In this document: positions 9,001 to 12,000 of the stretch, one piece after another
Layout of the letters: every line of letters begins with the position of its first letter
Position numbering within the stretch: position 1 is the first letter of the stretch
NCBI RefSeq assembly: GCF_045037415.1
Contig: NZ_CP173440.1
From: Escherichia coli
GTDB taxonomy: Bacteria; Pseudomonadota; Gammaproteobacteria; Enterobacterales; Enterobacteriaceae
Direction: 5' to 3' (one strand)
Length of the DNA stretch: 64,000 nucleotides
Position numbers: made by a program

Positions 9001-12000
9001 TCAGTACTTAACATGAAGGGATGAATTAAAATGTTAAATATAAGTTTTTTTTGTGGGCGATGAACAGAGAATTAAAGCCGGTTATTCAGGCAGGGCAGGA
9101 ACAACCACCATGGATAATCGGCTCCCGGACATGTCCGGGCAAAGAAATCGTAGAACTAGCGCATGACAGTAAGGCGGGGTAATCGAGGCAATATCTCAAC
9201 AGTACAAATGAAATAATGCGTTGCTGGGTGGGCACCGGCAGTCAGAGCCAGCGTTCTGCAGCTGCATCAAAGGCTAAGTGTACCTGCCATTACTCCAGCT
9301 CATGAATCAGCATGCCAGCATGTTTAATGTTTAGAGTCGTCATGTTTGCATTAAGGTCTTTCATCATTCTGGTTCCGCCGCATCGCACATATTCTCTTAA
9401 TCTTCCATTGTAGGCAGCGCTGGAAGCGATTTTAAGCTGCTTTATCGGACAGGGAAGATAAGCCACTCCTTTAACGAGATCGTCCTCAACAGCGTTCAGG
9501 TAAACGGGAGAGGCCGCAATGATAAAGATATCATGCCGGTACATACTAAACAGTTCCGCAAGGGAAGGGACTTTTCCAGGCAGTATGGGGTCAGAAGTCA
9601 GCATACCCCATATGCTGGCGCTCTTTCTTCCTATCTTTGTAAACGTAGCATCATAAGGGATCGCGGGGTCAGAACTGTGTCGTAGGCCCAGACCTGCAGA
9701 AATAACCCATAAACAGATATGAGAATTAGAGTTTGCAATAGACTTAGCTGTACTCCAGTGAGCACTACAGTATATGTTTTCCGTTTCCTTAATATCATCA
9801 TTACATGTAGTGAATCGGGACTGCACAAGACTTTTCCATTGCTGATAGGCAATCTCAGTATCTGTCGTATGGTAGGGAAACACAGTGTCATGTACAGGTC
9901 CTGCTTTCTTTTTCGCGCATGTTGTAATGAGATGAATAGTCGACATTATTCAGAGCCTATAAAGAGTATTTATTATCAATAAGGTAGTGTATTTAAAGAT
10001 GGGTATACTGGATCATCTTCAGGCACCCAATAACCAGACCCGCACTCCCATTCTTCTCCAATGAATACGAACATTTGCCTGGCAAGATATCTCCTGAGTT
10101 CCTGAGAGATTACGCTCTCAATTTTTAACAGGTAACTCTTGTTCTTACAATGGGCTTTTAAGTGAGAAAGAAGTGTACTGAAGCAGCCTTGATTAGTGAT
10201 AAATACAGAAACTGATGAAACAACCAGAACAGGTTTACCCAGCAAAGATGCATGTTTGCTACGTGCACGTATATACATGTTTTCGAACAAGGCCAAGCCA
10301 TCAACATGTCTGGATTTTACTGGTATAATACTTTTATTACTTTCATCCATTAGCCTTTCAAATGTATTGATTATATTTGTAATATCAGCCTCTAATATTT
10401 TTTGATTAATTATCATTGTACTCTGCAACCCCGGTGTTTGTAACATTCTTAACATCACTGATTAAACTAATATCTACAGAATGTGCCAGTGTTGTTAGCT
10501 CGGTAAAGTTAATTTTTTCGTAATAACCATCACTGATTAAGTTTAATAAATTAAAGTCCAGGGCAGGTGGTGGGCAAATGCTTCCAGAAGTGTAAAGATA
10601 CTCAAGCCCACGCGCATCAAATATGCCGTGAGGGGCACCCTCTGATAGTTTTCCACCTGAATATAACTCAACCCATATCCTGAGTCGGTAATCCAGAGTG
10701 AATTCACCTATCTCAATCCAGAAATGTGGATATAACTCAAAATACGTTTTGGGGTTTTTAACTACCCCGCACATTCGTTGATGAGAAATGCCTGCATGAT
10801 TTAGAGCACTGCTTATCATTAATGTATGACCATCGCACTCAACGGGTGCATTCTCAATAGCCTGTAAGAGATTGTTTAACTTCACAAGACAATCGGGCAT
10901 AAGGATATTGGCCATATAAATACCTATTCCGGAATTTCTGAGAGGAATTCATTAAAGAGATTATCATCGTACAGTGGGTATAATTGCTTCATCATACCAA
11001 AACCGGACATAGCTGCACTTCGCAAGTCGGGATAAAAAGTAGGCTTAGTGATAAGATCGCATTCATTCTTCAGCACACCTTCGAAGCAGCCGTAATCTTC
11101 CCCAAACTCCTGAACTATCATCCAACGGCCATCCTTGCATTCAACTACCATAATAGCAGACTTGGGGTAGTCGCCAGCTGGGGTCAACCAATCAAAATGG
11201 TAGTGGGTGATAGTTTGATAACTCTTATGGACATTCATAGCATTAACCCTAATGCAAGACTTACAACGTGAGAGGTTAGTGTCTGATAAAGCACTGTATA
11301 TATATGGGTCTTCCCTTGTTGTGGTGGCTGAAGGCATGATAATGGCGTATTAAATCGCCAGAGGTCACCACCATGGACGAAAAGTCCCTCTATGCACATA
11401 TCCTCAACTTGTCAGCTCCGTGGCAGGTAAAGTCTCTTTCTCTCGATGAAAATGCCGCTTCTGTTACCGTTACTGTCGGAATCGCTGAAAATACTCAGTT
11501 AACCTGTCCAGCCTGCGGGAAATCCTGCCCCGTTCACGATCACCGGCATCGTAAATGGCGCCACCTCGATACCTGCCAGTTCGCCACGATAGTTGAAGCC
11601 AGTGTGCCCCGTGTTATGTGTCCGAAGCATGGATGCCAGACTTTGCCTGTTCCGTGGGCGGGGCCCGGCAGCCGGTATACGCTGCTGTTCGAATCATTCG
11701 TGCTTTCATGGCTGAAAATCAGCACTGTTGATGCGGTCAGGAAACAACTCAAACTGAGCTGGAATGCCGTTGACGGCATTATGACCCGCGCGGTTAAACG
11801 AGGTCTTGCACGCATAAAAAAGCCGTTAGCAGCCCGGCATATGAATGTGGACGAGGTCGCTTTTAAAAAAGGACATCGTTATATAACGGTGATCTCCGAT
11901 CGTGACGGGCGGGCGCTGGCTTTAACGGATGATCGAGGTAAGGAAAGTCTTGCCGGTTACCTCAGAACCCTGACTGACGGACAGCTGCAGGCCATTAAAA

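What the first reader, a model, noticed from the sequence alone, without database searches (positions are those of the whole stretch)
9290..11338. Compact four-gene operon of unknown function with an ISL3 insertion at its 5' edge
Four same-strand genes with overlapping or 9-bp-spaced boundaries lie in AT-rich DNA, and none shows a motif I can place. The ISL3 element inserted exactly at the 5' end of the first gene, duplicating ATATATAT, so the native promoter is now separated from the operon. Operons of small unknown proteins in mobile accessory DNA are where new defence or anti-defence systems are typically found.
Basis: inference. Interest (0 to 1): 0.55.

Follow-up and report, generated by a model that had tools for sequence, protein, structure and literature searches.

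The report
SOS-controlled plasmid gene array split by IS
The four small genes are real, but they are a reshuffled set of plasmid accessory genes, three of them predicted enzymes, sitting beside a Xer recombination site and originally under a DNA-damage (LexA) switch that the ISL3 insertion has cut in two.

Summary
Partly confirmed. The window matches Klebsiella pneumoniae IncHI1B/IncFIB hybrid plasmids at 100% identity.

**The genes.** Four tightly packed minus-strand genes are present and under purifying selection (dN/dS about 0.2):
- A, 104 aa: no detectable relatives of known function.
- B, 169 aa: transglutaminase/papain-like fold with conserved Cys-His-Asp.
- C, 146 aa: minimal GNAT fold.
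- D, 218 aa: a short DpdC-like DUF6884 protein that keeps the CxxxK and SAxxG motifs. It lacks DpdC's C-terminal domain, and no DpdA or DpdB is nearby.

**The insertion.** The 137-aa first ORF is a chimera that reads into the IS. ISCfr12 (11306-12621, ATATATAT duplication) lies 67 bp upstream of A's real start. It sits inside a near-perfect LexA box (CTGTATATATATACAG) that is intact in IS-free relatives. Five bases further upstream is a dif-like XerC/XerD site, with ISKpn21 inserted 5 bp from its XerC arm.

**Conservation.** The block is not a unit. A-B-D, C-B, and C, B or D alone occur on other plasmids, often directly after a dif-like site.

**Reading.** This is a mosaic, Xer-site-linked, natively SOS-regulated accessory array, not a known defence system. 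Its function is unproven.

The parts
9290..9946 (-). Gene D, 218 aa: short orphan DpdC-like / DUF6884 protein
   Evidence: PADLOC DpdC model PDLC02818 matches at E 1.4e-42, covering profile positions 1-234 of 319. Pfam DUF6884 matches at 8e-5. The CxxxK (C10..K14) and SAxxG (S83-G87) motifs are invariant in a 32-member family alignment. D is 33% identical to a 327-aa DpdC that sits in a true dpdC-TGT-DndB-SNF2-DEAD-DpdG cluster.
9976..10416 (-). Gene C, 146 aa: minimal GNAT-fold protein; an optional member of the array
10406..10915 (-). Gene B, 169 aa: transglutaminase/papain-like fold with a Cys27-His64-Asp75 triad
10924..11238 (-). Gene A, 104 aa: small protein with no detectable family
   Evidence: The true start is MNVHK in IS-free relatives. 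dN/dS is 0.25. There are no hits in Pfam, NCBIfam, PADLOC, PHROGs or PDB sequences.
11294..11305 (-). Operon-proximal half of the split LexA box (CTGT + ATATATAT target duplication), 55 nt upstream of A's ATG
   Evidence: The sequence is read directly. The intact box GACTGTATATATATACAGTG is seen in L001, with close variants in L023 and L024.
11306..12621 (+). ISCfr12 (ISL3 family), 1316 bp, transposase at 11373-12593
   Evidence: Inverted ends are shown. The empty site is shown.
12622..12633 (-). Distal half of the split LexA box (second ATATATAT copy + ACAG)
   Evidence: Joining the two halves after removing the IS and one duplication copy restores the 16-nt core CTGTATATATATACAG.
12639..12666 (-). 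dif-like XerC/XerD site: AGTGCGCTTAA-tgtgcg-TTATGTTAAAT
   Evidence: It matches 20 of 22 arm positions of E. coli dif. Twenty shuffles of the window gave no site at 17/22 or better. The same site is published as an ISKpn21 target in an HI1B plasmid (PMC10132070, Table 8).
12667..14954 (+). ISKpn21 (IS1202 family, 2278 bp, 12672-14949) with its 5-bp AATGC duplications, inserted 5 bp from the XerC arm
   Evidence: One search gives the ends and the duplication at 12667-12671 and 14950-14954. The targeting rule is described.

Best explanation
The locus is a mosaic array of separable accessory genes, not one dedicated four-part machine. It sits on the XerD side of a plasmid dif-like recombination site in the IncHI1B-type backbone.

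In its native state the array is preceded by a consensus LexA operator. It would then be silent in unstressed cells and switched on by DNA damage or by the SOS signal that follows entry of single-stranded plasmid DNA.

Three of the products are predicted enzymes:
- D is a truncated DpdC/DUF6884 protein. I infer that it binds DNA, flips out a base and uses its conserved Cys/Lys pocket on a modified or damaged base.
- B is a Cys-His-Asp transglutaminase-fold enzyme (amide hydrolysis or transfer).
- C is a minimal GNAT-fold acyltransferase-like protein.
- A is unassigned.

My most likely reading is a damage- or entry-induced DNA/protein-modifying module that benefits the plasmid through DNA care or counter-defence. 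B-D is its most persistent pair.

In this window ISCfr12 landed in the (TA)4 core of the operator. This destroyed LexA control and detached the array from the upstream dif-like site and whatever promoter lay there.

What is shown: the gene models, selection, folds and motifs, the operator and dif-like sequences, the IS boundaries and the mosaic distribution.
What is inferred: LexA binding, Xer activity at the site, all enzyme substrates and the biological role.
For: **Gene models and insertion**
- Gene models and purifying selection.
- IS boundaries, duplication and empty site.

**LexA box**
- The box matches the consensus TACTGTATATATATACAGTA at 18/20 in L001 and L023 and 17/20 in L024, 55 nt before A's ATG.
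- The same scanner recovers the known umuDC box of pOXA-48 at 17/20, which serves as a positive control.
- Similar boxes directly follow the XerD arm upstream of an IncHI2 homologue of C (L009) and a lone homologue of D (L013/L014).

**dif-like sites**
- dif-like sites precede the cassettes in L001, L002, L008, L009, L012, L013, L015, L016, L023 and L007, and weakly in L010. Shuffles gave none.
- Homology between L023 and L024 begins inside the XerD arm.
- Two different elements abut the site at the same 5-bp offset from the XerC arm: ISKpn21, and an unidentified element beginning TGTCAGCAC. This offset is the published IS1202-family behaviour.

**Proteins**
- D.
- B.
- C.

**Mosaicism**
- Gene combinations differ between loci.
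- dS falls along the array: A 0.47, B 0.28, C 0.07, D 0.02.

**DNA-damage neighbourhood**
- The pOXA-48 homologue of D lies beside umuDC.
- The DUF6884 member YfjM was reported as an interactor of abasic and ribonucleotide lesions.
Against: - No sigma-70 consensus promoter is called over the operator in IS-free L023, so the promoter is only inferred from the operator's position.
- The LexA box is not general to the families. It is absent upstream of D homologues in pOXA-48, Pectobacterium, Serratia and Enterobacter, and it is deleted in pLVPK-type plasmids.
- No second dif-like site bounds the array at its 3' end, so it is not a classical dif module.
- No DpdA or DpdB, which would supply preQ0-modified DNA, is annotated in this stretch of the plasmid. 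D's substrate is therefore unknown.
- The GNAT acetyl-CoA loop of C is only partly recognisable.
- A has no assignment.
- No experiment bears on function.
Confidence: 0.45

Rival explanations
1. The four proteins work together as one new defence or anti-defence system.
For: - Spacing is tight and operon-like.
- The cluster sits in accessory DNA next to mobile elements.
- D matches a defence-system protein model.
- In pNDM-1-EC12 (L024) the A-B-D version lies beside a Hachiman system.
- C resembles, by fold only, the acetyltransferase anti-CRISPR AcrVA5.
Against: - The block is not conserved: A-B-D lacks C, C-B occurs in the reverse order, and A, B, C and D each occur alone on other plasmids.
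- The dS gradient shows the genes have separate histories.
- Apart from DpdC on D, PADLOC gives only a sub-threshold Vsr hit on C (E 0.046) and nothing on the neighbours.
- B and D are essentially absent from phage genomes.
- There is no ATPase or nuclease effector.
Confidence: 0.15
2. The array edits 7-deazaguanine DNA modification. D converts preQ0 in DNA to the amide ADG, as DpdC does, and B then acts on that carboxamide. The effect would be to complete, alter or erase a modification made by a host Dpd system or by a phage.
For: - D is a true DpdC homologue with the active-site motifs intact.
- DpdC acts on preQ0-DNA independently of DpdA and DpdB (PMC10164549).
- B's nearest folds include amide-acting enzymes: protein-glutaminase, transglutaminases and a deamidase.
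- B and D stay adjacent in three diverged lineages: the window, L012 and L024.
Against: - No dpdA or dpdB is annotated on this plasmid stretch.
- D lacks the C-terminal domain found in cluster-borne DpdC.
- D occurs without B on most plasmid types.
- There is no evidence that the usual hosts carry preQ0-modified DNA.
Confidence: 0.12
3. The genes are decaying leftovers with no present function, for example the remnant of a Dpd island plus random ORFs.
For: - All four are annotated as hypothetical proteins.
- D is shorter than DpdC.
- The locus is riddled with insertion sequences.
- Some plasmids carry truncated copies (hits H37-H40).
Against: - dN/dS is about 0.2 for A, B and C.
- Many residues are invariant in the D and B families.
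- D-like genes are found in 3114 plasmid records, B-like in 2238, C-like in 1698 and A-like in 1309.
- Full-length reading frames are kept across lineages at 50-80% identity.
Confidence: 0.05

Closest known systems
DpdC of the Dpd 7-deazaguanine restriction-modification system (DUF6884, PF21818)
   Same: D aligns with the DpdC N-terminal domain over its whole length. PADLOC gives 1.4e-42, and D is 33% identical to a DpdC inside a dpdC-dpdA-dpdB-helicase-dpdG cluster. The CxxxK and SAxxG motifs are invariant.
   Different: D lacks the C-terminal domain of about 85-100 aa. It has no DpdA, DpdB or restriction genes nearby. It belongs to a separate clade of 215-240-aa plasmid proteins found in IncHI1B, IncHI2, IncL (pOXA-48) and other plasmids.
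dif modules / Xer recombination site (xrs) cassettes of Acinetobacter plasmids, and IMEX elements at chromosomal dif
   Same: A 28-bp XerC-spacer-XerD site lies directly at the edge of variable gene content. An IS1202-family element sits 5 bp from the XerC arm, as published. The same genes are joined to different upstream contexts at the XerD arm. A homologue of D sits next to a canonical dif sequence in Serratia.
   Different: Only one site is detectable. No inversely oriented partner lies at the 3' end. The hosts are Enterobacterales IncHI-type plasmids. Recombination at the site has not been shown.
LexA (SOS) regulated plasmid genes such as umuDC/mucAB and colicin operons
   Same: The operator core is the exact consensus CTGT(AT)4ACAG, placed just upstream of the first gene. 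It scores higher than the pOXA-48 umuD box with the same scanner.
   Different: The gene content is unrelated to translesion polymerases or colicins. The operator abuts a dif-like site. In this window it is split by an IS.
Transglutaminase-like / papain-like Cys-His-Asp superfamily (LapG, TglA, SseI, protein-glutaminase)
   Different: It has no significant Pfam membership (best E 0.39 for B itself). It is a compact stand-alone protein of about 130-170 aa that forms a family of its own with 311 representatives.
GNAT acetyltransferases, including the anti-CRISPR AcrVA5
   Different: There is no sequence-level family match. The acetyl-CoA pyrophosphate loop is only partly kept. A conserved C-terminal CGSGYW motif is not a GNAT feature.

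Membership tests
Dpd system (DpdC) | Homology to the DpdC DUF6884 domain, with the CxxxK and LSAxxG motifs | tested here: met
   PADLOC PDLC02818 matches at 1.4e-42 and Pfam PF21818 at 8e-5. C10, K14, S83, A84 and G85 are invariant.
Dpd system (DpdC) | Full-length architecture of about 320 aa, including the C-terminal domain | tested here: not met
   D stops at 218 aa and covers profile positions 1-234 of 319. Cluster-borne relatives P0069 and P0071 carry about 85 extra residues.
Dpd system (DpdC) | Neighbouring dpdA (TGT-like) and dpdB (DndB/ParB-like), with or without dpdD-K | tested here: not met
   None is annotated in the matching plasmid stretches that cover the window. By contrast, the true cluster around P0069 has TGT, DndB, SNF2, DEAD and DpdG.
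Dpd system (DpdC) | Conversion of dPreQ0 in DNA to dADG | not testable with these tools
   This needs the LC-MS assay of PMC10164549.
dif module (Xer cassette) | 28-bp site with an XerC arm, a 6-bp spacer and an XerD arm | tested here: met
   Window 12639-12666 matches 20/22 arm positions. Twenty shuffles gave no site at 17/22 or better.
dif module (Xer cassette) | A pair of inversely oriented sites bounding the module | tested here: not met
   No second site at 14/22 or better lies between 8900 and 12638. The equivalent regions of L023, L012 and L013 show only chance-level matches.
dif module (Xer cassette) | The same module found in different sequence contexts, joined at the site | tested here: inconclusive
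   Homology between L023 and L024 starts inside the XerD arm, with unrelated DNA upstream. Cassette content differs after the site in L008, L009, L012, L013 and L015. No excision product or recombination was observed.
LexA regulon | CTGT-N8-ACAG operator close to the consensus TACTGTATATATATACAGTA in the control region | tested here: met
   The match is 18/20 in L001 and L023 and 17/20 in L024, 55 nt upstream of A's ATG. The umuD box served as a positive control at 17/20. In the window itself the box is split by ISCfr12.
LexA regulon | LexA binding and damage-inducible transcription | not testable with these tools
   No sigma-70 promoter consensus was called at the site.
Transglutaminase-like cysteine peptidase superfamily (B) | Fold plus a Cys-His-Asp triad | tested here: met
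Transglutaminase-like cysteine peptidase superfamily (B) | Significant match to a Pfam Transglut_core model | tested here: not met
   The best E-value is 0.39 for B. Five of 81 family members reach E <= 0.1, and none reaches 0.001.
GNAT superfamily (C) | GNAT fold | tested here: met
GNAT superfamily (C) | Motif A acetyl-CoA loop (Q/R-x-x-G-x-G/A) and a sequence-level family match | tested here: inconclusive
   The loop reads N-Q-G-C-F-S, with only G77 and F79 invariant. An IncHI2 homologue has G-T-G-I-F. There is no Pfam or NCBIfam hit.
ISL3-family insertion | Terminal inverted repeats, an 8-bp target duplication and an empty site elsewhere | tested here: met
Known anti-phage defence systems (PADLOC) | A complete set of system proteins | tested here: not met
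   Only DpdC models and one candidate model (PDC-M57A) hit D, and C has a sub-threshold Vsr hit (E 0.046). A, B and the neighbours have no hits.

The most novel reading that the evidence does not exclude
Enterobacterial conjugative plasmids carry a widespread orphan clade of short DpdC-like enzymes. D-like genes occur in 3114 PLSDB records, including hypervirulence, IncHI2 and pOXA-48 plasmids. Here the enzyme is paired with a transglutaminase-fold amidase and placed under a LexA operator fused to a Xer site. On the novel reading, this forms an SOS-triggered DNA base-editing module. It would rewrite or complete 7-deazaguanine-type or damaged bases so that the plasmid escapes, or exploits, modification-dependent immunity. 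The genes would be exchanged between plasmids as Xer-dependent cassettes.
Probability: 0.1. Interest if true: 0.8.

Novelty: new variant of a known kind. Interest (0 to 1): 0.45.

Why it matters
These genes ride on the K. pneumoniae hypervirulence and carbapenemase hybrid plasmids, and relatives of D are on pOXA-48 and IncHI2 plasmids, so they are among the commonest uncharacterised plasmid genes in clinical Enterobacterales.

Three points can be tested directly:
- What a DpdC-like DNA enzyme does without DpdA and DpdB.
- Whether a consensus SOS operator beside a dif-like site makes a damage- or entry-induced plasmid programme.
- Whether single Xer sites in IncHI plasmids act as gene-exchange points, as dif modules do in Acinetobacter.

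The ISCfr12 allele offers a natural comparison between 76 records with a broken operator and 251 with an intact one.

Tried and rejected
- **Family searches.** PADLOC, NCBIfam, PHROGs and Pfam were run on all four proteins. Only D gave significant hits. C gave a weak Vsr hit (E 0.046-0.083), which I rejected after the structure showed a GNAT fold, plus one PHROG of unknown function. A and B had nothing above threshold.
- **Solved structures.** PDB sequence searches with single proteins and with family profiles found nothing significant.
- **Fusion partners of B.** Pfam scans of longer B-domain proteins were uninformative.
- **Neighbours of distant homologues.** Neighbours of D homologues in Pectobacterium, Enterobacter and Serratia, and of B homologues elsewhere, had no defence models and no recurring partner.
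- **Phage genomes.** There is no D homologue and only two marginal B hits.
- **Rfam.** No known RNA lies in 5000-15000.
- **Species-representative genomes.** Scanning for 'XerD arm + 0-6 nt + CTGT-N8-ACAG' gave only 15 hits in unrelated taxa. These look like chance, so the composite is not general there. That collection holds few of these plasmids.
- **Second dif-like site.** None was found at the 3' end of the array.
- **Promoters and terminators.** No promoter was called at the operator, either in the window or in IS-free L023. No terminator lies between D and the convergent HAD gene.
- **ISKpn21 family.** I first read the 467-aa transposase as IS21-family. The RefSeq annotation and the literature place it in ISKpn21 of the IS1202 family.
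Full report
**Source of the window.** Bases 9200-11400 are 100% identical to many large K. pneumoniae plasmids, for example pKpvST147B_virulence (NZ_CP040726; IncFIB/IncHI1B, MOBH). Sixty-base samples taken every 3 kb show the window is colinear with that record up to about 60 kb, apart from one indel between about 51 and 54 kb; the sample at 63 kb fell outside the stretch I had fetched. RefSeq annotates the four genes as hypothetical proteins: WP_004196316, WP_004181938, WP_062826803 and WP_004181937.

**Check of the observation.**
- Four minus-strand ORFs are present in a stretch of lower G+C.
- The ISL3 element is ISCfr12. Its inverted ends place it at 11306-12621, flanked by ATATATAT at 11298-11305 and 12622-12629.
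- Plasmid OW635551 (L001) has the uninterrupted sequence with one copy of the target.
- In PLSDB, 76 records carry the junction and 251 carry the empty site.
Without the IS, the ORF starts at MNVHK and is 104 aa, which is window 10924-11238. The IS therefore lies 67 bp upstream of the start codon.
- Spacing is an 8-nt gap (A-B), an 11-nt overlap (B-C) and a 29-nt gap (C-D).
- Against the pLVPK-type allele (L002), dN/dS is 0.25, 0.22 and 0.22 for A, B and C. These are therefore coding genes under constraint. D has too few differences to say much.

**What the proteins are.**

*D (218 aa).*
- It matches PADLOC DpdC models (best 1.4e-42, profile positions 1-234 of 319) and Pfam DUF6884.
- The Pfam description of DUF6884 names CxxxK and LSAxxG as the conserved motifs and relates the family to the DNA-binding protein YaaA.
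- D has CAKKK and ISAGLG, and these positions are invariant in 32 relatives.
- A 327-aa relative (33% identity) sits in a real dpd cluster next to TGT, DndB-like, SNF2, DEAD and DpdG genes. It carries an extra C-terminal domain that D lacks.
- No dpdA or dpdB is annotated on this stretch of the plasmid.

*B (169 aa).*
- It belongs to a family with 311 representatives.
- The consensus is LECDG...GIxH...PHxWIE...IDYRLRMW...PHGVF, with invariant His64 and Asp75 and near-invariant Cys27.
- Pfam gives only sub-threshold Transglut_core hits.

*C (146 aa).*
- The weak Vsr sequence hits are not supported by the fold.

*A (104 aa).* It has no detectable relatives of known function.

**The block is a mosaic.**

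| Locus | Arrangement |
|---|---|
| K. michiganensis plasmid L023 (IS-free) | H-NS, a 91-aa gene, then A-B-C-D, followed by the convergent HAD gene |
| pNDM-1-EC12 (L024) | A-B-D without C |
| Metagenomic contig L012 | B-D without C, preceded by an unrelated 108-aa gene (no similarity to A) |
| Citrobacter plasmid L008 | An unrelated 104-aa gene, then C, then B |
| IncHI2 plasmids | C alone, or A with a serine protease |
| IncC plasmids | B alone |
| Pectobacterium, Serratia, Enterobacter, IncHI2 and pOXA-48 | D alone or with other partners |

Synonymous divergence between the window and L002 falls from 0.47 (A) through 0.28 (B) and 0.07 (C) to 0.02 (D). This indicates recombination inside the array. 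By tblastn, D-like genes occur in 3114 plasmid records, B-like in 2238, C-like in 1698 and A-like in 1309.

**The control region, which is the main new point.**
- Aligning IS-free upstream regions shows a conserved palindrome 55 nt before A's ATG. It reads GACTGTATATATATACAGTG in L001, with close variants in L023 and L024.
- From established knowledge, its 16-nt core is the exact consensus LexA box, CTGT(AT)4ACAG.
- It matches the 20-nt consensus at 18/20 (L001, L023) and 17/20 (L024). My scanner recovers the known umuDC box of pOXA-48 at 17/20.
- ISCfr12 inserted into the central ATATATAT of this box. In the window the half-sites lie at 11294-11305 and 12622-12633, so a LexA dimer could not bind.
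- pLVPK-type plasmids have instead deleted the box.
- Comparable boxes lie upstream of a lone D homologue (L013/L014) and of the IncHI2 C homologue (L009).
- They are absent upstream of D in pOXA-48 and several other contexts.
- No sigma-70 promoter consensus is called at the site, so the promoter itself is inferred.

**The dif-like site.**
- Five bases upstream of the box is AGTGCGCTTAA-tgtgcg-TTATGTTAAAT (window 12639-12666, minus strand). It matches E. coli dif (GGTGCGCATAA-TGTATA-TTATGTTAAAT, recalled from memory) at 20 of 22 arm positions. No shuffled window gave 17/22 or better.
- ISKpn21 (12672-14949) sits 5 bp from the XerC arm, with AATGC duplications.
- This is the published behaviour of this IS1202-family element. 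Table 8 of PMC10132070 lists an almost identical HI1B site (GCATT / AGTGCGCTTAA / TGTACG / TTATGTTAAAT).
- A second, unidentified element beginning TGTCAGCAC follows ISKpn21 in the window. In L002 it abuts the same 5-bp position directly, which fits serial targeted insertions.
- dif-like sites also lie immediately upstream of the cassettes in L008, L009, L012, L013, L015, L016 and L023, and weakly in L010. A canonical dif sequence precedes the Serratia D homologue.
- Homology between L023 and L024 starts inside the XerD arm.
- No partner site is detectable at the 3' end of the array.
- The site therefore marks a recombination and acquisition boundary, but the array is not a classical two-site dif module.
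- In the window, the ancestral upstream neighbours (thermonuclease at 48791-49285 and H-NS at 48056-48454) lie about 37 kb away on the same strand. The intervening accessory DNA accumulated on the XerC side of this site.

**Interpretation.** The sequence features, folds and distribution described above are shown directly. LexA control, Xer activity, all substrates and the biological role are inferred. The reading I favour is an SOS-inducible (damage- or entry-induced) array of separable plasmid enzymes centred on a DNA-acting DpdC-like protein. Its regulation has been broken in this lineage by ISCfr12.

Alternatives are:
- a single four-part defence or anti-defence system, disfavoured by the mosaicism;
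- a 7-deazaguanine editing pair formed by D and B, which is coherent but has no source of substrate in view;
- decaying leftovers, disfavoured by selection and conservation.

**Known or new.** ISCfr12, ISKpn21, the targeted dif-like site, DUF6884/DpdC and the GNAT and transglutaminase folds are all known kinds. In the held literature I found no description of three things:
- the orphan short DpdC clade on plasmids;
- the consensus SOS box fused to a dif-like site;
- its disruption in the ST147-type hybrid plasmids.

I rate the finding a new variant of known kinds, of moderate interest, with function still open.

Noticed in passing
window 12639-15120: Serial targeted insertions at one Xer site. 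ISKpn21 (12672-14949, AATGC duplications) lies 5 bp from the XerC arm. It is followed at 14955 by another element starting TGTCAGCACAAAGCG. In pLVPK-type L002 that second element abuts the same 5-bp position directly.
   Followed up: partly
window 11306-48454: The ancestral upstream neighbours of gene A (H-NS at 48056-48454 and thermonuclease at 48791-49285, both minus strand) are about 37 kb away. In IS-free L023 they lie within 2 kb of A. The intervening block has therefore accreted on the XerC side of the dif-like site. It includes a set of zinc-starvation-type paralogues: hemB 17065-18087, folE2 24156-25091, dksA 25155-25577 and cysS 27479-28861.
   Followed up: partly
window 8408-9016 (+): A convergent neighbour encodes a HAD_SAK_2 domain protein ('HAD domain in Swiss Army Knife RNA repair proteins', Pfam 5e-23). 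The same gene stays next to D in L012 and L023.
   Followed up: no
L001 12716-13654: Two further dif-like sites flank a 160-aa GNAT acetyltransferase and an 88-aa partner. This is probably the 'novel dif module containing a GNAT acetyltransferase' reported for an HI1B plasmid in PMC10132070. The module is absent from the window.
   Followed up: partly
L040 5989-6672 (pOXA-48): pOXA-48 carries a 227-aa homologue of D (43% identity). It overlaps the end of a small HTH gene and follows a 395-aa protein with a RelB/DinJ-like N-terminus. It lies convergent to umuDC, whose LexA box is at L040 8973.
   Followed up: partly
L024 1-4112: In pNDM-1-EC12 the A-B-D version of the array lies divergently next to a Hachiman system (HamA plus helicase) and a TIGR02391 protein.
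   Followed up: no
L007 5238-5265: A canonical dif sequence (GGTGCGCATAA-tgtata-TTATGTTAATA) lies about 100 bp upstream of two small genes and a D homologue in a Serratia fonticola contig. This suggests an element integrated at a chromosomal dif site.
   Followed up: no
window 55965-57496 (-): A type I-E Cas6e-like gene and a 320-aa DEAD/DEAH helicase fragment lie on the plasmid beside an IS5 element. They look like a remnant of a CRISPR-Cas locus.
   Followed up: no
window 5199-5214: A second CTGT-N8-ACAG match (CTGTGGTCATCTACAG) lies in the DsbC/DsbA region. It is conserved in relatives but is not TA-rich. About 0.7 such matches are expected by chance in the window.
   Followed up: no
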